64,000 nucleotides of DNA from Trypanosoma brucei. Its lineage: Eukaryota. The stretch lies in assembly GCA_000002445.1 (NCBI GenBank), contig CP000069.1, positions 1,536,001 through 1,600,000 on the forward strand. Reading direction: 5' to 3'. Shown in pieces: positions 1 through 63,350 of this stretch. The number at the start of each line of letters is the position of its first letter. The stretch's first letter is position 1. The notes beneath the pieces are model-generated. The model had not been told where the DNA came from, did not search any database, and saw only the letters and a list, made by a program, of their open reading frames with translations. Made by a program: the position numbers and the translations under genes.

Positions 1-1202
1 GAGAGTGCCTAGGGTGTCAGAAGTTTGGCTTCCTGAAATTTTGTATGTTACTGTTTCCGTGGCTTCCTTCTTGAGAAATACTTCTTCGACAGTTTTTTCC
101 TCACTGCCAACCATGTCCCTTACTGCTCTCACCTTATCTACTGTTCCTTTTTGATTCTGATACTTTATTAGGTCGAGGGCTAGCACGATCAGTTGCATGT
201 CAGGGTCTGCGCTTAGTTCACTGACTTTTGTCTGGCTTACTAGTTTTTCCGTTGTTTCTTTGGTTTTGTCCGCTTGGCAGAGGTCTGCTGCTAACACGCT
301 TGCCTTTACTATTAGTTCCGACTTCGGCCCTTGGTGTTTGCACAGGTTTTGTCTGTTTCTGTTGGCGTAAATCTGACGTTTCTGGCCATTTTTGCGCTTG
401 TGATCGTGGGCTTAACCGTTCTCACGCCCACAGCGTTACTCCAGCCTCCATGTGTTGTGGTGTCTCCGCACGCATTGCAATTTGTTGTCCCTGATGGGTT
501 GGCGCTGACAGTTCCTTTGCATAAAGCCTGTATTTTGAGGCCTTGAGGCGCAAACATGTTGTCGTGCAGTAGATTTAGGGGTTTGAAGTCGTCTAGGTGC
601 TTTGCTGCAGAATCAAGTTCTTGTGCGTCGCCTGCTATCTCCGTCTCGCAGCTGCTGTCTCCTGGAGTACTAGCTTTAAACGTTGCTTTACATGATCCGC
701 CTGCTGCACCTGTAATCGTTGTTTCAGCTGCGCTGGTTGCTTTTCCTGTCGCTGTGTGTGCGCCGAGAACGTTTGTTGCTGTGAGCAGTGCCAGTTGGCC
801 CTGCCTTGTCCTGATCGAGGTTAGTGCTGTTTGCCACTCCTTTATTTGGCCTTATTGCCCCCTCTGACCTCGTTGTAGCCTTTCCATTGCGAGCAATTTT
901 AGTGCTGTTAGCTTTTGTTGTTCAGCTTGAGTTTGTTGGCGGGTTTCCACGAGTTGTATGATAAGCATGTCGCTTATTAGATTTGATGTGCCTTGTACGG
1001 TCGAAGTTATGCGCTTGTTGAGTTGGTTTGCCAGATCATCTAGAAATCTTGACTCCGAACAAGGCGATTTTATTTTGGCGAGGACAGATTGCGCGTCTGC
1101 TCGTGCTTGCCTTATCTAATCTGCACCTGAAAAAACTAGGAGCATAGTGACTTTCCATGACATGTTGGCCATTGAAGGTAGTATCGTGGGGTAATGTAGC
1201 AT
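1..1202 (-). pseudogene. VSG N-terminal-domain pseudogene fragment (partial; continues past the window start)
   Basis: Minus-strand translation from ~1202 gives 'MLHYPTILPSMANMSWKVTMLLVFSGAD*IRQARADAQSVLAK...QLNKRITSTVQGTSNLISDMLIIQLVETRQQTQAEQQKLTALKLLAMERLQRGQ...', which is a type-A VSG N-domain. It has in-frame stops and is split across frames (ORFs 312-557 and 1249-1434 on the minus strand). Confidence 0.55.
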
Positions 1203-9738: not shown

Positions 9739-9816
9739 CCCTGGAGATGCCGGCCACCTCAATGTGGTGCCAGGGTCCAGTACCCCGTATCATCGGGGGA
9801 AGCCAAGAGCCAGCAG
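9739..9816 (+). promoter_or_regulatory. Pr77 hallmark (ingi/RIME/L1Tc 5' internal promoter / ribozyme-like region)
   Basis: The first ~78 nt of the element match the Pr77 signature shared by ingi/RIME, L1Tc and SIDER. Confidence 0.7.
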
Positions 9817-10238
9817 CGTTCCTTTCATAGGGAACACTGCTGTGCTCCGGCTACGGCATCATACAGCACAGGGATCAGCAGCGTCTTGCTGGGACATCGT
9901 TTTTCATTTGTCGGTCCCTGAGCACGTGCCAGCGTGCCATCAGCAGTATATCATCCGCACTAAGATGCTGCTGTCCGGTGATGTGGAAGAGAATCCCTGC
10001 CTGTCGTTTCACGGGATGCAGTGGAACTGCGCCGGGCTATCTCAAGGAAAGAGATTAGCACTCCACAAAACCCTTGTTGATGAGCGGATCGCCTTTTGTC
10101 TGTTGAGCGAGACAAGGATGACGCCTGGAGAGGCGGCTTGCTTTAGCGTTGCTGGCTACCAACATCACGGAATAGCTCGTAACTGCAAAGGATGAGGTGT
10201 ATCAATACTAGTGAGAGGACATACCAGTCGAGACCGGT

Positions 10239-11100
10239 ATGGCCGTTGTTGGTCGCATTGAAAAAGTGCATGCAACAATTCACCTTGCACGTGGAACGGC
10301 GCTGACTGTCACGTCGGCATACATCCCACCAAAACACACCTTCACGGCAACTGACCTAGATACGCTTCTGACGACTGACGGTGCCCAGCTCATCGGTGCA
10401 GACGCTAACGCACACGCGTTGGCATGGGATCGCGCGAGCCCACCAAATACCAAGGGTGAAACCCTCACACAGTGGTGCATTGACAACCAGTTTCTGGTCT
10501 GCAACACTGGTGAGTGCACCAGGTACGAGCGCCACCACGGGGAGTCCACCCCTGATGTGACACTGTCAAGGAATTGCACAGTGTACACGTGGACATCGCT
10601 GTATTCTCCCGATAGCGATCACCATCACATATTTTTCGACGTTATCTTTGGAGACGACACAGATGCACTGAGCTGCCCGCGGCTTCGAAAGCCCATGTAC
10701 GCATGGCTAAAAGCTGACTGGAGGAATTTCCGTCTCAAGGTTGACGACCTCTGCAGGAAAATTGGTAGAGAGAAGAATGTCAACACCCTGGAACAGATAT
10801 TGAGCTCCGACATCTGCATTGCGACGAAGGTCTCCGTCCCCCGTGGCTGCAGAGCAACGCCACCACATTGGACACCTGAGCTCGCGAAACTCGATGAAGA
10901 GATCGCTGGATGCGGACCCTCCCACCGAAGGGAAAAGTTGGTAGCCACGCGTAAGCAGATCCTGGACCGTACCACAAAGAAGAGATGGAGCACGCTATGC
11001 TCCAGACTTGCGGTGTCAGACCGCTGCAGTTGGCACATTGTCAAGAAGGTATATGCGCCACGACCACTAACCACACCGGCTGTACTTGTTGATAACGCGG
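10239..11100 (+). pseudogene. ingi ORF fragment: apurinic/apyrimidinic-endonuclease-like domain
   Basis: A 407-aa ORF piece reading '...ALTVTSAYIPPKHTF...GADANAHALAWD...' has EEP-fold character. It is out of frame with the neighbouring pieces. Confidence 0.6.
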
Positions 11101-11386
11101 CCATCACGGACTACCGTCAAGCTGAGAGGTTCAGTAAACTGTACTCTTCCCGCGCAAGAAGGCACCCCGACTCACACCCACCGGCACCAATAAAGACGAT
11201 AGCGAGTGAGTTCAGTCCCATCACGATGGCTGAACTACGGAGATCGATCAAACTGCTACCGAGTGGATCCGCAGCCGGACCTGATTGCTTATACAACGAG
11301 GCACTGCAACATCTCGGCAGAACAGCGCTGAATGTTGTTGTGAGGCTATTCAATGAGAGCCTACGAACGGGAGTCGTGCCGCCTGC

Positions 11387-12496
11387 ATGGAAGACTGGTG
11401 TTATCATCCCCATCCTGAAGGCCGGAAAAAGGCGGAGGACCTCGATTCTTACAGGCCTGTGACGCTCACGAGCTGTCTCTGCAAAGTCATGGAGCGCATA
11501 TTTGCCACGAGGCTTAGAGACACTGTTGAGTCCCAGCTGACGCCGCAGCAATCAGGCTTTCGCCCCGGATGCTCAACGCTCGAACAACTCCTGCACGTCC
11601 GCGCTGCCCTCTGCCGCCCCACGCACCAATATCGTACGGGTGCTGTATTCGTCGACTACGAGAAGGCATTTGATACAGTAGACCACGACAAAATTGCGAG
11701 GGAAATGCACAGAATGAAGGTATCACCCCACATTGTGAAGTGGTGCGTATCATTTCTGAGTAACCGAACTGGCAGAGTGAGATTCAAGGAGAAGCTTTCC
11801 AGAAGCAGAACATTTGAGCGAGGAGTGCCACAGGGAACTGTCCTTGGCCCAATCATGTTCATTATTGTCATGAACTCGTTGAACCAGCGCCTTGCAGAAG
11901 TGCCGTTACTGCAGCACGGATTCTTTGCAGACAACCTGACGCTACTTGCGAGGCACACAGAGAGGGATGCCATCAACCACACACTACAATGCGGCCTAAC
12001 CGTGGTGTTACAGTGGCCAAAAGAGTACTTCATGTCTGTCAACGTAGCGAAAACGAAGTGCACACTCTTCGGGTTTATAGAGCGCCACCCCCTTACATTA
12101 CAACTGGACGGCAAAAGAATAGGAGCTGGCAGGACACCGAAGCTTCTAGGAGTAACATTCCAGTGTCTGCAGGGGATGGCAACACATGCTGCAGAAACGA
12201 GACGCAAGATGGATTTTAGACTACTGCAGATAGCAGCCATCTCAGCTTCTACATGGGAGCCAAGAAGACAAGTACTGAGAGCTTTTTATCTAGCACTCGT
12301 ACAGGCACACACCATGTATGGCATTGAGGTATGGTACTGGGACGCTTCGGAACGAAGTCGCGACCTCCTTGCAGCAGCACAACACAAAGCCAGTCGCATC
12401 ATAGCTGGCATACCGCATGGGACGCGCAAAGAGGACTCTCTGCTGGAAGCAAACCTCCTGCCACTCAAGACGACCGCTCTTGTGCGCAGCACGTAA
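11387..12496 (+). pseudogene. ingi ORF fragment: reverse transcriptase domain
   Basis: A 369-aa ORF reading '...YRPVTLTSCLCKVMERIFATRL...GFRPGCSTLEQLL...AVFVDYEKAFDTVDHD...GVPQGTVLGPIMF...FFADNLTLLA' shows the canonical RT motifs 1-5. Confidence 0.8.
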
Positions 12497-12699
12497 TTCA
12501 TGCTGATGTGTGAGTCACGAGGCGGATGTTTGCGCCACAGTGCTGAGAAAGTATACCACAGCAAACACCCAGTCAGAGTCTTACATTCCCGCATCATGCG
12601 GTCCTATCCCCACCTCCACATTGAGCCACGCGAGCACCCACTAGAGACATCGACGCTCCGCCACAGTTGCCGACCGCTATTTCACACGCAGATAAAGCC

Positions 12700-14460
12700 C
12701 GTATGCGCTGATGACCCTGACGATGTCAAAAGGGAGGCTTCCGAAAAATGGATTGCACGGCATTTTGCACGGAGGGGGAAGGAGCCACCGCGGCGAGAGC
12801 ACTACGAATTGTGGACTGATGGATCCGTGTCCCTCGGTGAGAAGTCCGGAGCAGCTGCCCTACTCTATAGAAACAACACGCTGATTTGTGCACCCAAGAC
12901 CTGAGCAGAGGAACTCTCATGCAGTTACAGAGCGGAATGCGTAGCATTAGAGATAGGACTGCAACGGCTGCTAAAATGGCTTCCGGTATACAGAAGCACA
13001 CCGAGCAGGTTGTCCATCTTCTCTGACTCGCTGTCAATGTTAACAGCACTGCAGACAGGCCCCCTAGCCGTAACGGACCCAATTCTAAGACGACTATGGA
13101 GGCTTCTGCTTCAAGTTCAGAGAAGGAAGATACGTATCCGACTGCAATTTGTGTTTGCCCATTGTGGCGTGAAACGGAATGAGGTTTGCGATGAAATGGC
13201 CAAAAAGGCCGCTGACTTACCACAGTTGCGAGACACATGGATCCCCGACATCATTGCTTATGCGAAGCGAGTGCTTAGATCGGAAGAAGTCCATGAGAAC
13301 ACTCATAGGTTTGGTATCACGGGCAACCACTTTCCAACAAAACATAAAGAAGAACTGACGAGGGAAGAAGAAACGGCACGGGCACGCTTTCGGGTTGGGT
13401 CTTCAAGACACTATGGATGGATGTTGCGAAAGATCAACCCGAGTGTGCCTCCACAGTGCCGATGGTGCAACCCGCAACATGCAGCGATAGGACCAACAAT
13501 ACAAACAGCCCCACCTGTTGCGACACGCACTCTTCAGAGAACCTCCGAATCAAACAAATGTACGGAATGTGATGCCACATACCAATGCCGCTCGAGTGCT
13601 GTAACGCACATGGTAAACAAACACGGCTTTGTGCGAGCTGATGCCCTCCGGAGGATCAAATACGGCGATGCAACACCCGCAGTGGATATCCCCCCGGAGC
13701 CCCCTCCAGTGGTGGCGATCGTTCCTCTACCATCGAGCACACGAGTCCCGATGAGACCGCAGGTGCTTCATTGTACCCTCTGTGCCTCCAAATTCGCAGT
13801 GCCAGGCCGACTATTACACCACCTTAGAACAATACATGGCATAGGCAGCGGTAGTTGCCGCGTGAAAAGGGGGCGAGAGAACGAAGACTCAGTGCAAGGA
13901 GATGGTAGCGTCCCAGCAGCGCCAGCCTCTCAGGATACACGGAAGCTGCCGTTTCAATGTGACTTGTGCGAGGCGAGCTTCGGTACACACTCTTCCCTGT
14001 CACTACACAAGAAATTCAAACATAAGAGCATAGTGACGGAGGACGGTACCGTGGTGTTGGTGCAATTCCCTCGTAAGCGTGCCCGTGAGGGAAACGTTGA
14101 CGTCCCGGGGAAGGGCGAGGTGCAGTGTGGTGTGTGCCAAAAAAGTGCTCAGTTGCGGGGCCTCCCTCATCCGACACTGTAAGGCTTTCCACAAAGGTGA
14201 GGGAGTCGAGCTTAAATGCAGCAAAATCACAAAATTGGGTGCCACTGATTCCCCGCATACAAACACATCCATGTTGGTGTGCCAGACAGGCGGAAGGCAG
14301 TGTGCTAGCAAAACTGGCCTCACCCTACATCAAAAGAAGATGCACGGTATGAGAGCAGAGCGCACTGTTACGAGCCAACGCGGCGACTGCAAAGAAACGT
14401 CGCTGCACCTGATGAGCTGTCCAGGTTTGAAGGAGTTACGTGTCAGGTTTGCGGTAGAGG
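12700..14460 (+). pseudogene. ingi ORF fragments: RNaseH-like and C2H2 zinc-finger C-terminal region
   Basis: 'HYELWTDGSVSLGEKSGAAALLY' is the RNase H DxxS/TDGS motif. ORF 13010-14182 carries several Cx2Cx12Hx3-4H fingers. Confidence 0.65.
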
Positions 14461-15027
14461 GTGTGTGTGTACAAGATGTATGTTTCTCTAAAAGGCTGGC
14501 GCAATTTCTCATTGCGGTTGAACGGAGCCGGCCGCAGGTGAAGTCCTCACCTAAGGTAAAAGTCATACAACCCACTCTCCCTTCTGCAACTTCCCCCTTA
14601 TTTCTGAGAGTGGAGCTAGCAGGAAAAGCACCGGACGCATGAATAGTCCAGACACCCTCAGAGACAGAGGGGGTATGCAATCAACAAGCAACAGAAACAG
14701 AAAGAGGGAGAGAGAATAATAAACGAATAACAAAAATCAAAACAAAAGGATTGCTAATTGACATCTTCGGGAGAGTCTGGGGAGGGGTTCTTTTCGCCCC
14801 ATCTGCTGTAATGTGTTCAACTGCGGAGCTACAACAAAAATTATAGAGGGTGTGTTAGGATGAATAAAAAAGGGAGACTCTGCCACAGTCGCCAGACCGA
14901 TAGCATCTCAGGGCTCTACGGTGATGGCTGATGGCCGCGCCAGTGGGGGGAAACTCTCACGAAGACACGAAGAAAATTCAAAAAAAAACGAACACACTCT
15001 TCTTCGCACCCTTGTTTGGTGGTTAAG

Positions 15028-15575
15028 TAGAGTGCTTGTCGAACATTGTACAAGGGTAGATCCCAGGGGGCGGAGAGTATCTAGCTTACACTAAGAATGA
15101 ATCTGCCTCAATGTGGCGCCAGGGTCACGTACCAGAAGAGAAATCGACTGGAAAGCCAAATGTTCCATCCAAAAGTCGGTTGCAATACTGAATATGCTGT
15201 GGCTGCTCCATGAAGAAAGAACCATTACTTAGTGTTGCACCACGGTTCAGTACCCTGCTCAGGTGGGGGAACCAAAATCCCTGACCCAACTTCCGGCCGG
15301 GGAGGCAGATGGATATGGTAAACATGGTTCAGATGCAATGTGGGAGGGATCGAATGGGCGTCAAGTGGAGACCACCCCCCTAGACACGCACACATGCGGT
15401 CTCTCACCCGTGGGTATCAATTCTCCAAAAAACAGGGAATTTCAGTGGGTAGGCACGCTGGTCTCCAGCGCTGAGTCCCACACTACCATATCGTCGTGGC
15501 GTGGTGTGCGTAAATGCATTTCCTCCTTACCATCGGGTGGACAGACTGCATGGTCCTGAAGGTTGCGCGAGGGGA
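15028..15575 (+). mobile_element. ~550-bp dispersed element, copy 1: tRNA-like segment, then a Pr77-like motif ('CTGCCTCAATGTGGCGCCAGGGTCACGTACCAG'), a body, and an A-rich end; unclassified, possibly a SIDER/DIRE-like retroposon
   Basis: It is homologous in inverted orientation to 60285-60862. The segment ~15077-15353 is 100% identical to the other copy, and the flanks are ~80-85% identical. It starts with A-box/B-box-like motifs 'TTTGGTGGTTAAGTAGAG...GGGTAGATCCC' and ends 'GGGGAAAAAG'. It sits 40 bp 3' of the ingi poly(A). Confidence 0.6.
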
Positions 15576-15598
15576 AAAAGTAACGGTTGATTCTATCT

Positions 15599-16130
15599 TT
15601 AATCAGTTATTTTAAGCATTTCATTAACCGCCTTTTCAAACTTTTTGAATTCCCAAACTCTAGCTATTATGTCACCTTTATTGAAGTGTGCTTTATAGTT
15701 TGCAGGCCACTTTAACATATGAGTTAGTTTCTTTTGTTCCTCTTCTTGGCATGTTGCTTCAAAAAAAAACATGCGCACCTCTCCATATGCTCCCTGTGAT
15801 CTGAGTTCAAAGTCAAGTACAGCCGAAGCGCATAACACTTGGTAGTCGTTACAAATATAATGGGATAAACTTGTTTCTCTTTTACTACATCCTCCTCGCT
15901 AAACTTCCCTTCATTTTCCGCAGTGTTTTGTATAAAATACCCCACAGCGGTTTCATATTTTTCTCCGTCAGTAACAATAACATCAGATCCGTCAACAGTT
16001 ATCACAATATCCTCATCAATTTTATCCTGTTTTTTAAAAATTTACATAACCCATCTAGCTCTTTTGACATTGCTATGCAAGTTTCCCATAGCAATTGTAA
16101 TAATTTTAACATGGCTTAGTTTCGCACTCA
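15599..16130 (-). pseudogene. Small-ORF family member, copy 1 (in-frame stop and frameshift); function unknown
   Basis: Minus-strand translation gives '...SAKLSHVKIITIAMGNLHSNVKRARWVM*IFKKQDKIDEDIVITVDGSDVIVTDGEKYETAVGYFIQNTAENEGKFSEEDVVKEKQVYPIIFVTTTKCYALRLYLTLNSDH...'. It is colinear with the copy at 53781-54149 and ~80% identical at the nucleotide level. Confidence 0.5.
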
Positions 16131-36271: not shown

Positions 36272-36745
<474 letters not shown>

Positions 36746-59975: not shown

Positions 59976-60284
59976 ATTTATTGTGTGTTGATGGTTATAC
60001 GCTTAGATGCTTTGCACTCTAAAATAGATGCGTTGGTTTCATTTCAAAGGAAGTTAGGGAACTCTTGAGGCGCCTTGCCGTGTACTTTGGCACTTACCCT
60101 CACGGGTTGGTACCTGTCGTTCATTTTTATCAGAAAAAGTTGTTCTTTATGCGTAGTGCTAATACTTCTTCCGGGTTTTGTGGGTGGTATCGCAACGATG
60201 CCTTGCCGCTGGAGGCTCAGATTTCCGCTTTGGCGTAAATTCCTTTTTAAAATTCTATACTCGTTGACTTTTTTAAATTTTCCA

Positions 60285-60862
60285 CCGAGCAACCGTCAGG
60301 TCCATGCAGTCTGACCAGCCGAGGGTAAGGCTTAAATGCATTTATCCGCACCACGCCGTGAGGACATGGTAGTGTGGGACTCAACGCTGGAGGCCAGCGT
60401 GCCTATCCACTAAAACCCCCTTTGTTTCTTTGAGAATCGACACATACAGGTGGGCCACCGCATGTGTGCGATTCTAGGGGGCGTTGTCCATTTGCCGTCC
60501 ATCCGATCCCTCCCACATTGCATCTGAACCATGTTTACCATATCCATCTGCCTCCCCGGCCGGAAGTTGGGTCAGGGATTTTGGTTCCCCCACCTGAGCA
60601 GGGTACTGAACCGTGGTGCAACACTAAGTAATGGTTCTTTCTTCATGGAGCAGCCACAGCATATTCAGTATTGCAACCGACTTTTGGATGGAACATTTGG
60701 CTTTCCAGTCGATTTCTCTTCTGGTACGTGACCCTGGCGCCACATTGAGGCAGATTCATTCTTAGTGTAAGCTAAATAATCTGCGCCCGCGGGGATTCAC
60801 CCAGGAATTATCTGCGACGAGCACTCTACTTAACCACTAAACCAGGGGCCGGTTAAGTTGCT
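60285..60862 (-). mobile_element. ~550-bp dispersed element, copy 2 (inverted relative to copy 1)
   Basis: The reverse complement carries the same tRNA-like segment ('GGTTTAGTGGTTAAGTAGAGTGC...GGGTGAATCCCC'), the same Pr77-like motif, a ~277-bp 100%-identical core (60507-60783) and the 66-aa ORF 60531-60731, which is identical to ORF 15125-15325. Confidence 0.6.
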
Positions 60863-63007
60863 GTTGTAGTCCGCGTAACACAAGCATGTTAAATCTTTTG
60901 CTACGGTTGTCACCTGGATTTTTTCTGAAGCCGAGTTGCACCGTTCCGTTCCTGTGCTGAACATCGGTTTCTTCGTCGCTTGTTGGGGTTGATCTCCCGA
61001 CAGAGGGTGCTTTAGGTGTTGTCGTGGCGTTGTTACTAAAGCCTGTATCATAGCGTGAGTCAGCTTTTGCTGTCTACTCGGTTTTATGGCGCCCAGTTGC
61101 ATTTGTTTTACGGCTGTTTCTGTCAGTTGTCGTTCTGGTTCGTCGCAGGTGCGTAAATATTTACGCTTTGCATCTGCTGCCTGTGCCTCTGGAAAACTTT
61201 GTTTTGTCTTCTGCCATGTTTGTTTGCTAAAAGGTGAAAAAATTGGCGGCGTGAAATTAACTGTCAGCGTTGTTACAAAGTACAGTTCCTGTCCGTCGAT
61301 GATCGCGTGTCGTGTGTCGGTTCGTGTTAAGTCTGTTGTGTTGGATTTCTATGAGGACGGCTTGTAAATTGCGCAGAAGAAAGAGAATTCTTTGCTGTTC
61401 TTTGTGGCCGCTGTGTTGGCCAGTGCCGCCGCCAATAGTAGTAACAACGATGTTGGTGCTGTAGCAAATACGCCATCTCCCGACTTTTCATGTCCGTATC
61501 TGTTCATCCCTAGCTTTCAGTCGGGACTTGCAAACTCTGGGGGTTCAGAAACGGAAAAATAGTTGAGTGGCCCCAGTGTCTACAATAAAGTCCACTGCTT
61601 TTCTTTCAAGCTGCTGTTGTTTACCGCGCGTGGCTTTTAGATTGATGAATACGATTTGTATCCATTCACATTATTTCTAGCCGCCTATATCCCTCATCTA
61701 TGAAATATCGTCTTTCGACACCCTATTTTTCCACTAAAATAAAAGCTTTATATTCTCACTATTACTTGCCACCGCTTGAAATCAATACATAACATGAAAA
61801 TCACACGACAGAATAAAAAACAGTCACCACCATCATCTCTGTTGCACCCATTCATTTTTTGTGATGTGGTGTTTTCTTTTGAGTGCCCATGGTACTTCCA
61901 TCCGCCGCATCATATGTGACTTCGTAATTTCGGCCCCCAGTTTCGCCACTTCTTCCATTTCATACTTTATGTGCTTCATTCTGGGCCTTGAGAATGATTA
62001 ATTCTAAACATTGAAGAGGAGTATCTGTTGTTCTCTTCCTAGGAACTTCTTACATTTGTAACGTAGATTGTCATTGGTCTTTCATTTGTTCCATTTTTAA
62101 ATAATTATCTGATAGCTGTCGATTTCTTGCACGTGAGCGACACAAAAGCTACAACAGGATAAAAGTCTCATGAGAAATGGCTCATCTATTCTGACTTATT
62201 CCCTCTGTGTTAGATTCACTTGTATTATTTAAAGTCACCTTGTTTTTAATCTACTAAATAAGCTATTTAAGTTGTGCCTACACACCTCTAATTGCATGGC
62301 CCCAGAAAAACAATGAAATGCTTCGTTCTATCGAATATTTTTACCAACTCTACTGTGCATAGGGTGTTAATAAGGTTAAATGCTTCTACACTGCCTTTTA
62401 ATGCAATAATTTTATTTTTGTCTCTTTTCATTTGCCATTTCTATGGTTTTCCGGATAGTTTTCAAAATCTTTAAATGTTGTGATATTTTTTGAGCTTTAC
62501 ACGTATGTTTAGGTACAATCATTCTCTGCATACTTGTTCACTTCTCTCAAGTTCCAAATTCTGTTCATAGCTGCACTCTCACAAGAATTACACGTAATTT
62601 ATTAGCTACACTTTCTGCATTAGATAGTTTTTTTCCATAATGCTGCTTTCAGTAGAAATAATGCATTCTTCGAGGAATTCTCAGTAACATGTGGGAAATA
62701 GTAGGCTTAGTCTCTTGCCACACTCACTGCTTCTCCGTTGCAAATTTAGAAGCTTAATTTGTCTTCAAAACTGTACTCTGTCTTTTCATCATCTTACCGT
62801 GTATAACAATGAGCAGTTCCATGTTATTGTTTGACACTCCACATATTCTGTCTCCTTTTTCTTTTCTTTACGCCTTTCTTAATAATATTATCCGTTCCCT
62901 CCCCTTTCCCTCTTACTCACTGTCCCTCCTACTCACTTTGATTTCGCACTTACCACTGTTCAAATATTTTATTTTTTTCTGTCCATATAGTCTTCATACT
63001 AACTCCT

Positions 63008-63350
<343 letters not shown>

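What the first reader, a model, noticed from the sequence alone, without database searches (positions are those of the whole stretch)
15028..15575. Unclassified ~550-bp element with a tRNA-like head and Pr77-like motif, in two inverted copies sharing a 277-bp perfectly identical core
Regions 15028-15575 (+) and 60285-60862 (-) are homologous. Each begins with a tRNA-like segment: A-box-like 'TGGTGGTTAAGTAGAG' / 'TTTAGTGGTTAAGTAGAG' and B-box-like 'GGGTAGATCCC' / 'GGGTGAATCCCC'. Next comes 'CTGCCTCAATGTGGCGCCAGGGTCACGTACCAG', which resembles the Pr77 signature of ingi/RIME/L1Tc/SIDER ('CCTCAATGTGGTGCCAGGGTCCAGTACC'). The rest is ~450 bp of body ending in a short A-rich tail. A central ~277 bp (15077-15353 versus 60507-60783) is 100% identical in the two copies, including an identical 66-aa ORF. 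The tRNA-like head and the 3' body are only ~80-85% identical. That mosaic of identity suggests recent gene conversion or selection on the core. The size and architecture recall Leishmania SIDER or degenerate ingi-related elements, but the tRNA-like head is not part of canonical ingi/RIME. Copy 1 abuts the 3' poly(A) of the ingi. The two inverted copies, 45 kb apart, also form a substrate for inversion of the intervening VSG block.
Basis: partly seen in the sequence, partly recalled or inferred. Interest (0 to 1): 0.75.

Follow-up and report, generated by a model that had tools for sequence, protein, structure and literature searches.

The report
Two known TbSIDER2 dead retroposons
The two inverted ~570-bp repeats are copies of TbSIDER2, an extinct short retroposon of Trypanosoma brucei first described in 2007, and these very copies are printed in a 2014 paper; the one small addition is that they have recently copied a 271-bp stretch from one to the other.

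Summary
The repeat is real, but it is not unclassified. Copy 1 (window 15009-15579, +) and copy 2 (60269-60847, -), each with 22-nt flanks, are letter-for-letter the TbSIDER2 entries Tb927_06_v4:1,550,987..1,551,601 and 1,596,247..1,596,869. Both are printed in Additional file 1 of Sanchez-Luque et al. 2014 (PMC4035085). The family was defined by Bringaud et al. 2007 (PMC2323293): 12 copies, extinct, mostly subtelomeric.

The Pr77-like motif is a genuine Pr77 hallmark (z about 7-10 against the ingi Pr77 in this window), and the A-rich tail is present. The "tRNA-like head" fails every tRNA test I could run: ARAGORN, Rfam down to about 8-11 bits, and cloverleaf pairing. It is better read as the 5' strand of helix P1 plus a conserved 13-bp hairpin, which matches the published "large hairpin".

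The perfectly identical core is 271 bp (15082-15352 = 60774-60504), not 277. Outside it the copies are only 77% identical, no closer to each other than to copies on other chromosomes. That points to a recent ectopic gene-conversion tract.

Verdict: already known, low interest.

The parts
15009..15579 (+). TbSIDER2 copy 1 (571 bp), equal to Tb927_06_v4:1,551,009-1,551,579
   Evidence: With its 22-nt flanks it is an exact string match to the published entry Tb927_06_v4:1,550,987..1,551,601. It is 88.9% identical to my 7-copy consensus.
60269..60847 (-). TbSIDER2 copy 2 (579 bp), equal to Tb927_06_v4:1,596,269-1,596,847
   Evidence: With its 22-nt flanks it is an exact string match to the published entry Tb927_06_v4:1,596,247..1,596,869. 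It is 86.4% identical to the consensus.
15082..15352 (+). 271-bp tract 100% identical to 60504-60774 (-); inferred gene-conversion tract
   Evidence: This is the longest identical run at 271 bp; the next longest is 18 bp. Identity outside it is 77%, and P(run) is about 1e-28. In head and tail the two copies are no closer to each other than to copies on chromosomes 3, 4 and 8.
60504..60774 (-). Partner of the 271-bp identical tract, in copy 2
15009..15015 (+). 5' strand of helix P1 (CCCTTGT; family consensus CCCTGGT), pairing with GCCAGGG at 15118-15124
   Evidence: RNAalifold consensus structure. This helix is 93.9% paired across the 7 copies. In copy 1 the G5>T change breaks one pair.
15017..15093 (+). 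The arms are 15017-15029 and 15078-15093; the variable interior holds the box-B-like GGGTAGATCCC.
   Evidence: 13 bp, 95-100% paired across 7 family members, against 30-48% when the partner is slid by 1-3 columns. The cloverleaf alternative reaches only 67%. PMC4035085 mentions a 'large hairpin in TbSIDER2(162)Rz'.
15104..15160 (+). Pr77 hallmark core: CCTCAATGTGGCGCCAGGGTCACGTACC ... GGAAAGCCAA. The DPE motif CGTG is mutated to TGTG.
   Evidence: Local alignment to the ingi Pr77 (9739-9817) scores 55 vs 17.7+-3.5. BLAST gives 28 nt at 89%. The DPE motif and its role come from PMC4748587.
15234..15275 (+). Second, partial Pr77-like segment inside the body: GTTGCACCACGGTTCAGTACCCTGCTCAGGTGGGGGAACCAA
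   Evidence: Consensus positions 215-275 against the ingi Pr77 score 43 vs 17.6+-3.5, 0/2000.
15571..15579 (+). A-rich 3' tail (GGGGAAAAA). In copy 2 the tail is GGAAAATTTAAAAAA at about 60269-60283 (-).
   Evidence: Sequence read directly and the family alignment.
9739..14988 (+). Context only: a degenerate ingi (5250 bp) whose A9 tail ends 20 nt before copy 1
   Evidence: The Pr77 sequence is at its 5' end. Endonuclease, RT and RNase H domains sit in separate ORFs. No TSD was found.

Best explanation
Both repeats are copies of TbSIDER2. This is an extinct, non-coding, roughly 575-bp non-LTR retroposon of the ingi/L1Tc clade in Trypanosoma brucei. The window is TREU927 chromosome 6, 1,536,001-1,600,000, in a subtelomeric VSG array.

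Anatomy, 5' to 3':
- CCCTGGT, the 5' strand of helix P1.
- A roughly 77-nt hairpin with 13-bp arms.
- A Pr77 hallmark (CCTCAACGTGGCGCCAGGGTCCAGTACC...GGGAAGCCAA).
- A body that contains a second, partial Pr77-like piece.
- An A-rich tail.

How it worked (from the literature, not shown here). [quoted passage not shown] TbSIDER2 was copied in trans by target-primed reverse transcription, using the machinery of ingi4-subclade elements (Tbingi or TbDIRE).

Present state. The elements are dead. They lie 11-14% from the consensus and have no target-site duplications. The DPE motif is mutated in both copies. The family's ribozyme was inactive in vitro.

The two copies are old and separately diverged: head and tail are 77% identical and the flanks are unrelated. 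A 271-bp central tract was recently homogenised by ectopic, non-crossover homologous recombination (gene conversion) across 45 kb. This step is inferred from the identity mosaic.
For: Identity:
- Exact string matches, flanks included, to two published TbSIDER2 entries.
- Full-length alignment with five further published copies from chromosomes 3, 4 and 8 and from T. b. gambiense.
- Length and divergence fall within the published ranges of 558-587 bp and 8-13.7%.

Hallmark: significant similarity to the ingi Pr77.

Head: P1 plus the large hairpin is 95.7% paired across 7 copies, against 30-48% in slid controls. This agrees with the 'large hairpin' named in PMC4035085.

Mobilisation: other family members match the ingi4 upstream signature at 5-7 of 8 positions. 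The window background averages 3 of 10; the signature comes from PMC3820030.

Gene conversion:
- A 271-bp perfect run inside 77% identity, with P about 1e-28.
- In head and tail the pair is no more similar than any other pair of copies.
- Homology stops at the element ends.
- The shared core carries 34 differences from the consensus of the other copies, so it is one diverged copy's sequence written over the other.
Against: - No target-site duplication at either copy.
- The ingi4 upstream signature is weak at copy 1 (5/10, the distal part overwritten by the ingi tail) and absent at copy 2 (2/10).
- Beyond the first six bases, head positions 7-95 show no statistically detectable similarity to Pr77 (z about 0). 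The published description of 'two in-tandem Pr77 hallmarks' could therefore not be reproduced by simple alignment for this stretch.
- No compensatory base changes support the hairpin.
- No Rfam HDV-type ribozyme family matches.
- Donor, recipient and date of the conversion are unknown, because I could not retrieve the orthologous loci of other strains.
Confidence: 0.93

Rival explanations
1. The head is a degenerate tRNA. TbSIDER2 would then be a chimeric tRNA-derived SINE, with an internal RNA polymerase III promoter (boxes A and B) fused to a Pr77 hallmark.
For: - The family consensus has TGGTTTAGTGG at positions 4-14, one mismatch from TRGCNNAGTGG.
- It has GGATCGATCCC at positions 46-56, one mismatch from GGTTCGANNCC.
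- The spacing of 42 nt is tRNA-like. No site of this quality occurs on either strand of the 64-kb window.
- With its threshold lowered to 80%, ARAGORN calls one family member over positions -3..71.
- D-arm-like pairing (6-9 with 17-20) holds in 89% of cells.
Against: - ARAGORN at default settings finds nothing in any of the 7 copies or in the consensus.
- At the 80% threshold, 1 of 8 heads is called, against 2.3% of shuffles; this is not significant.
- Rfam's tRNA model gives no match for either window copy, even in 106-nt searches that list hits of 8-11 bits.
- The anticodon and T helices pair in only 51-57% of cells and the whole cloverleaf in 67%. The P1 plus hairpin alternative, which uses the 'box A' bases as a hairpin arm, reaches 95.7%.
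- The TTAGTGGT motif also sits at the same offset in TbSIDER1, which lacks the insertion.
Confidence: 0.05
2. The identical 271-bp core is kept identical by selection on a function, either a non-coding RNA or the 66-aa antisense ORF, rather than by gene conversion.
For: - Across the family the core is somewhat better conserved than head or tail: 80-92% versus 69-89% among non-orthologous copies.
- The antisense reading frame stays open in 5 of 7 copies.
Against: - Other family members differ from this core by 8-20%, so the family is under no strong constraint.
- Amino-acid changes are frequent: about 12 of 66 residues differ against the closest other copy. One copy has a frameshift and a stop, and another has lost the ATG.
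- There is no Pfam match and no such protein on record.
- The identity ends abruptly on both sides. That is the signature of a recombination tract, not of graded constraint.
Confidence: 0.03
3. A simple local segmental (inverted) duplication of an otherwise unique sequence.
For: There are two copies, 45 kb apart, on the same chromosome arm.
Against: - Homology ends exactly at the element boundaries and the flanks are unrelated.
- At least five further copies exist on chromosomes 3, 4 and 8 and in T. b. gambiense. The literature counts 12 copies.
- Head and tail of the two copies are as diverged from each other as from those other copies.
Confidence: 0.01

Closest known systems
[quoted passage not shown] 2007, PMC2323293; sequences in Sanchez-Luque et al. 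2014, PMC4035085, Additional file 1)
   Same: Everything. The two window copies are two of the published members, identical base for base including flanks.
   Different: Nothing in the sequence. In the papers I could read with these tools I found no mention of the 271-bp identical tract shared by the two chromosome-6 copies. A search for 'gene conversion' in PMC3820030 gave 0 hits.
TbRIME / Tbingi (the active ingi4-subclade pair of T. brucei)
   Same: The 5' CCCTGG, the Pr77 hallmark, an A-rich tail and a subtelomeric location. According to PMC3820030 the same ingi4 upstream target signature precedes TbSIDER2.
   Different: Only about 28-55 nt of the hallmark aligns; the body is unrelated. TbSIDER2 has a roughly 80-90-nt insertion (hairpin) between CCCTGG and the rest of the hallmark. 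Median divergence is 11% for TbSIDER2 versus 4% for RIME.
Leishmania SIDER2 (LmSIDER2)
   Same: A short, degenerate, extinct ingi-clade retroposon of similar length. PMC4035085 places the two in the same clade.
   Different: No sequence similarity outside the hallmark. LmSIDER2 has about 1,000 copies in 3'UTRs, where it regulates mRNA, and several of its ribozymes are active. TbSIDER2 has 12 copies, mostly in silent subtelomeres, and its ribozyme is inactive.
TSIDER1 (TbSIDER1 / TcoSIDER1 / TvSIDER1; Bringaud et al. 2011, PMC3820030)
   Same: Similar size (about 570 bp), a Pr77 hallmark and a shared CCCTG..TTAGTGGT start.
   Different: The body is unrelated and there is no large hairpin insertion. 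TSIDER1 is preceded by the ingi6 target signature, not the ingi4 one.
tRNA-derived SINEs (for example mammalian MIR or B2)
   Same: Short, non-autonomous, mobilised by a LINE. The family-consensus head contains box-A-like and box-B-like motifs at tRNA-like spacing.
   Different: No detectable cloverleaf and no tRNA model hit. The 'box A' bases pair into a long hairpin instead. Bringaud 2007 contrasts the trypanosome short retroposons RIME and NARTc, which arose from ingi and L1Tc by deletion, with tRNA-, 5S- and 7SL-derived SINEs.

Membership tests
TbSIDER2 | Full-length sequence homology to the published TbSIDER2 members or consensus (558-587 bp) | tested here: met
   Exact identity to two published entries. 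86-89% identity to the 7-copy consensus over 566-575 nt. Lengths are 571 and 579 bp.
TbSIDER2 | The '79-bp signature' / Pr77 hallmark at the 5' end, starting CCCTGG | tested here: met
   The copies start CCCTTG (copy 1) and CCCTGG (copy 2). Positions 73-165 against the ingi Pr77 give z about 7-10. The stretch 7-95 is not itself significantly Pr77-like.
TbSIDER2 | Adenosine-rich 3' end | tested here: met
   GGGGAAAAA in copy 1 and GGAAAATTTAAAAAA in copy 2.
TbSIDER2 | Degenerate and extinct: 8-13.7% divergence from the consensus, non-coding | tested here: met
   11.1% and 13.6% from the consensus. No Pfam domain in its ORFs.
TbSIDER2 | Preceded by the ingi4 target signature (AxxxxxxxTxxxGTxGGxTxxx^xTxTxxTxxxxx; PMC3820030) | tested here: inconclusive
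   Copy 1 scores 5/10: the proximal xTxTxxT is 3/3, and the distal part has been replaced by the ingi tail. Copy 2 scores 2/10. Other members score 4-7 of 8. The window background averages 3/10.
TbSIDER2 | 12-bp target-site duplication (general for the ingi clade; reported for only 1 TbSIDER2 member) | tested here: not met
   No match of 8 nt or more, allowing <=2 mismatches, between the 30-nt flanks of either copy. This is expected for an old element and is not required by the family definition.
tRNA or tRNA-derived SINE head | A cloverleaf recognised by tRNA detectors or a covariance model | tested here: not met
   ARAGORN finds 0. Rfam finds no tRNA at gathering score or at E<=10, even on 106-nt stretches. 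Cloverleaf pairing is 67%, with the anticodon and T arms at 51-57%.
tRNA or tRNA-derived SINE head | Internal RNA polymerase III boxes A (TRGCNNAGTGG) and B (GGTTCGANNCC) at 30-60 nt spacing | tested here: inconclusive
   The family consensus has 1 mismatch in each box at spacing 42. Five of 7 copies have 1 and 2 mismatches. Copy 1 reaches only 2 and 2 at a shifted position, and copy 2 has none.
HDV-like ribozyme (L1TcRz type) | Helix P1 between the element's first bases and the GCCAGGG of the hallmark | tested here: met
   Positions 1-7 pair with 110-116 in 93.9% of cells across 7 copies. Copy 1 has one broken pair (G5>T).
HDV-like ribozyme (L1TcRz type) | Self-cleavage immediately upstream of position 1 | not testable with these tools
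   PMC4035085 reports that none of the assayed T. brucei SIDER ribozymes cleaved in vitro. No Rfam HDV-type family matches here.
ingi / RIME | Homology to ingi or RIME beyond the 5' hallmark | tested here: not met
   Only 28 nt of the hallmark align to the ingi in this window.

The most novel reading that the evidence does not exclude
The roughly 85-nt stretch between CCCTGG and the Pr77 hallmark has no detectable similarity to Pr77. In the family consensus it carries near-perfect box-A and box-B motifs at tRNA-like spacing. It could be the remnant of a captured tRNA or tRNA-like RNA polymerase III module. TbSIDER2 would then be the first tRNA-related chimeric SINE reported in trypanosomatids.
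Probability: 0.05. Interest if true: 0.45.

Novelty: already known. Interest (0 to 1): 0.1.

Why it matters
It matters little. The element family, its hallmark, its distribution and even these two loci are already in the literature.

The one added observation is a 271-bp perfect tract shared by two otherwise 23%-diverged dead retroposons in inverted orientation, 45 kb apart. It is a clean local example of ectopic homologous recombination acting on non-VSG sequence inside a subtelomeric VSG array. It also shows that such relics can serve as recombination substrates there. This fits what is generally known about T. brucei subtelomeres and opens no new question.

Tried and rejected
- tRNA identity of the head. 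I tried ARAGORN at default and relaxed thresholds with shuffled controls, Rfam at four settings, and cloverleaf against hairpin pairing counts. Rejected as unsupported.
- The head as a second tandem Pr77 copy. Local and global alignments of positions 1-72, 1-79 and 7-95 against the ingi Pr77, against the element's own hallmark and against TbSIDER1 heads were all within shuffle expectation, apart from the initial CCCTGG. I could neither confirm nor refute the published 'two in-tandem hallmarks' wording for this stretch. Table S1 and the figures that define it are images and are not held.
- Retrieving orthologous loci from other strains, to date and polarise the conversion. Exact-protein look-ups of the 66-aa ORF and of the adjacent 510-aa VSG found nothing on record. 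The DNA collections offered hold no trypanosome genomes.
- Looking for T. brucei tRNA sequences in PMC2695483, for a direct comparison. The supplements hold only gene lists and terminators.
- Supplementary Tables S2 and S3 of PMC2323293 concern Leishmania only.
- Coding potential of the antisense 66-aa ORF and the 98-aa sense ORF: no Pfam hits.
- Target-site duplications for both copies and for the ingi: none found.

Full report
**1. The observation**

A self-BLAST of the region finds one other homologous place in the window. 15009-15578 (+) matches 60847-60278 (-) at 89% identity over 572 columns. A 28-nt match also links it to 9757-9784.

That third place is the 5' end of a 5,250-bp ingi (9739-14988). 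The ingi starts CCCTGGAGATGCCGGCCACCTCAATGTGGTGCCAGGGTCCAGTACC.... Its endonuclease, reverse transcriptase and RNase H domains lie in separate ORFs. Its A9 tail ends 20 nt before copy 1.

So the two inverted copies, the Pr77-like motif, the A-rich ends and the neighbouring ingi are all real. The pairwise alignment shows one perfect run of 271 bp, 15082-15352 = 60774-60504. The next longest run is 18 bp. The remaining 311 columns are 77% identical (head 76.7%, tail 77.3%).

**2. What it is**

Literature searches on Pr77, ingi and SIDER led to Bringaud et al. 2007 (PMC2323293). Using the 79-bp ingi/RIME signature as bait, they found 22 short degenerate retroposons of 558-587 bp in T. brucei. Ten are TbSIDER1 and 12 are TbSIDER2. 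All have the signature at the 5' end and an A-rich 3' end. Divergence from the TbSIDER2 consensus is 8-13.7%. The elements are extinct, and 95.5% of them lie outside the directional gene clusters, chiefly in subtelomeres and strand-switch regions.

Additional file 1 of Sanchez-Luque et al. 2014 (PMC4035085) prints seven TbSIDER2 sequences with 22-nt flanks. A string search shows two exact matches:
- Tb927_06_v4:1,550,987..1,551,601 is identical to window 14987-15601 (+).
- Tb927_06_v4:1,596,247..1,596,869 is identical to window 60247-60869 (-).

The window is therefore T. brucei TREU927 chromosome 6, 1,536,001-1,600,000. The elements are 15009-15579 and 60269-60847. They align along their whole length with copies from chromosomes 3, 4 and 8 and from T. 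b. gambiense. They are 88.9% and 86.4% identical to my 7-copy consensus.

The surroundings are a VSG array. Pfam finds VSG_B, the A-type VSG domain and the VSG C-terminal domain, all on the minus strand.

**3. The Pr77 motif**

Consensus positions 73-165 align to the ingi Pr77 with a local score of 55, against 17.7+-3.5 for dinucleotide shuffles (0/2000). The global alignment gives z 7.3. This is a true hallmark.

In both window copies the DPE motif CGTG reads TGTG. Macias et al. 2016 report that this motif is essential for L1Tc promoter activity and is conserved in the TbSIDER2 consensus.

A second, partial Pr77-like piece lies inside the body, at consensus 215-275 (window 15234-15275). It scores 43 vs 17.6+-3.5, 0/2000.

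**4. The "tRNA-like head"**

tRNA detectors give no support:
- ARAGORN finds no tRNA in the window, in any of the seven heads or in the consensus.
- With its threshold lowered to 80% it calls one of eight heads. The same setting.3% of shuffled heads, so this is not significant.
- Rfam gives no tRNA match at gathering score.
- It gives none at E<=10 on about 660-nt stretches.
- It gives none on 106-nt stretches, where hits of 8-11 bits are already listed.

The family consensus has box A with one mismatch at positions 4-14 and box B with one mismatch at 46-56. No site of that quality occurs anywhere in the window. The two window copies themselves do not stand out.

The RNAalifold consensus of the first 167 nt of the seven copies gives a different picture. 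Positions 1-7 (CCCUGGU) pair with 110-116 (GCCAGGG), which is the P1 helix of the published HDV-like fold. Positions 9-21 pair with 70-85 to form a 13-bp hairpin. Counted on the alignment, this structure is paired in 95.7% of cells, against 30-48% when the partners are slid. A cloverleaf drawn on the same columns reaches 67%, with its anticodon and T arms at 51-57%. Neither structure has compensatory changes.

[quoted passage not shown] It names a "large hairpin in TbSIDER2(162)Rz" that does not contribute to the ribozyme.

I could not detect any similarity between positions 7-95 and Pr77 (z about 0). The evolutionary origin of this insertion stays open. A tRNA origin is possible but unsupported.

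**5. The identical core**

In head and tail the two chromosome-6 copies are 76-77% identical to each other. That is no closer than either is to copies on other chromosomes, which range from 69% to 84%. Homology stops at the element ends and the flanks are unrelated. These are old, separately diverged copies, not a recent duplication.

The shared core differs from the consensus of the other copies at 34 of 271 columns. The differences are mostly C>T and G>A transitions. The core is thus one copy's decayed sequence written onto the other. A 271-bp perfect run at 77% background identity has a probability of about 1e-28.

Selection is unlikely. Other members differ from this core by 8-20%. The antisense 66-aa ORF accumulates amino-acid changes, is frameshifted in one copy and lacks its ATG in another. 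It has no Pfam match or database record.

The best reading is a recent non-crossover gene-conversion tract of at most 271 bp. Inside and outside the 45-kb interval the VSG ORFs all face the same way, so this assembly shows no inversion.

**6. Mechanism**

Shown here: family membership, the hallmark, the P1 plus hairpin pairing potential, the decay, the absence of target-site duplications, and the conversion mosaic.

Taken from the literature:
- TbSIDER2 is preceded by the ingi4 target signature, so it was mobilised by Tbingi or TbDIRE machinery. I see that signature in the other members (4-7 of 8 positions). It is only partial at copy 1 (5/10) and absent at copy 2 (2/10), where a VSG_B fragment abuts the element.
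- None of the assayed T. brucei SIDER ribozymes cleaved in vitro.

Inferred: both copies are inert today.

**7. Verdict**

The element is already known, down to these two loci. "Unclassified" and "tRNA-like head" do not hold. Interest is low.

Noticed in passing
window 15234-15275 (and 60581-60622 on the minus strand): A second, partial Pr77-like segment lies inside the TbSIDER2 body: GTTGCACCACGGTTCAGTACCCTGCTCAGGTGGGGGAACCAA. It aligns to ingi Pr77 positions 36-76 with a score of 43 vs 17.6+-3.5, 0/2000 shuffles. I could not tell whether this is what the literature means by the second 'in-tandem' hallmark.
   Followed up: partly
window 9739-14988: A full-length (5,250 bp) but degenerate ingi. 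Its endonuclease, RT and RNase H domains are split over several ORFs. No 12-bp target-site duplication is recognisable, and the ingi4 upstream signature scores only 3/10. One of its junctions may have been rearranged.
   Followed up: partly
window 60830-61102 (-), abutting copy 2 at 60847/60848: A VSG_B N-terminal-domain fragment (Pfam profile positions 150-215) reads straight into the 5' end of TbSIDER2 copy 2 and stops in it. The sequence downstream of the element does not continue this VSG. The element's 5' boundary therefore looks like a rearrangement junction rather than a simple insertion.
   Followed up: partly
window 36307-36734 and 63048-63350: Two long (TAT)n arrays. The first has about 143 units at 99% match and the second about 101 units at 85%. 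Mechanical ORFs of 180-230 aa overlap them.
   Followed up: no
window 15125-15325 (-) and the homologous stretch in the other TbSIDER2 copies: The antisense frame holding the 66-aa ORF is free of stops in 5 of 7 family members, and the length differences are in multiples of three (198 vs 201 nt). One copy is frameshifted and one lacks the ATG. By my rough estimate this is compatible with chance (about 0.1).
   Followed up: partly
window 15009-15101; alignment A2 columns 9-21 and 70-85: Within the otherwise variable head, the two hairpin arms (TAGTGGTTAAGTA and TATTTAGCTTACACTA) are almost invariant across copies from four chromosomes. The 48 nt between them is the most variable part of the element. 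Why a dead element keeps these arms better than the rest is unexplained.
   Followed up: partly
window 15434-15527 (+): A weak Rfam match to the R2 retrotransposon RNA element (RF00524): 16.5 bits against a gathering score of 38, E=0.55. It is present in copy 1 only and is most likely chance.
   Followed up: no
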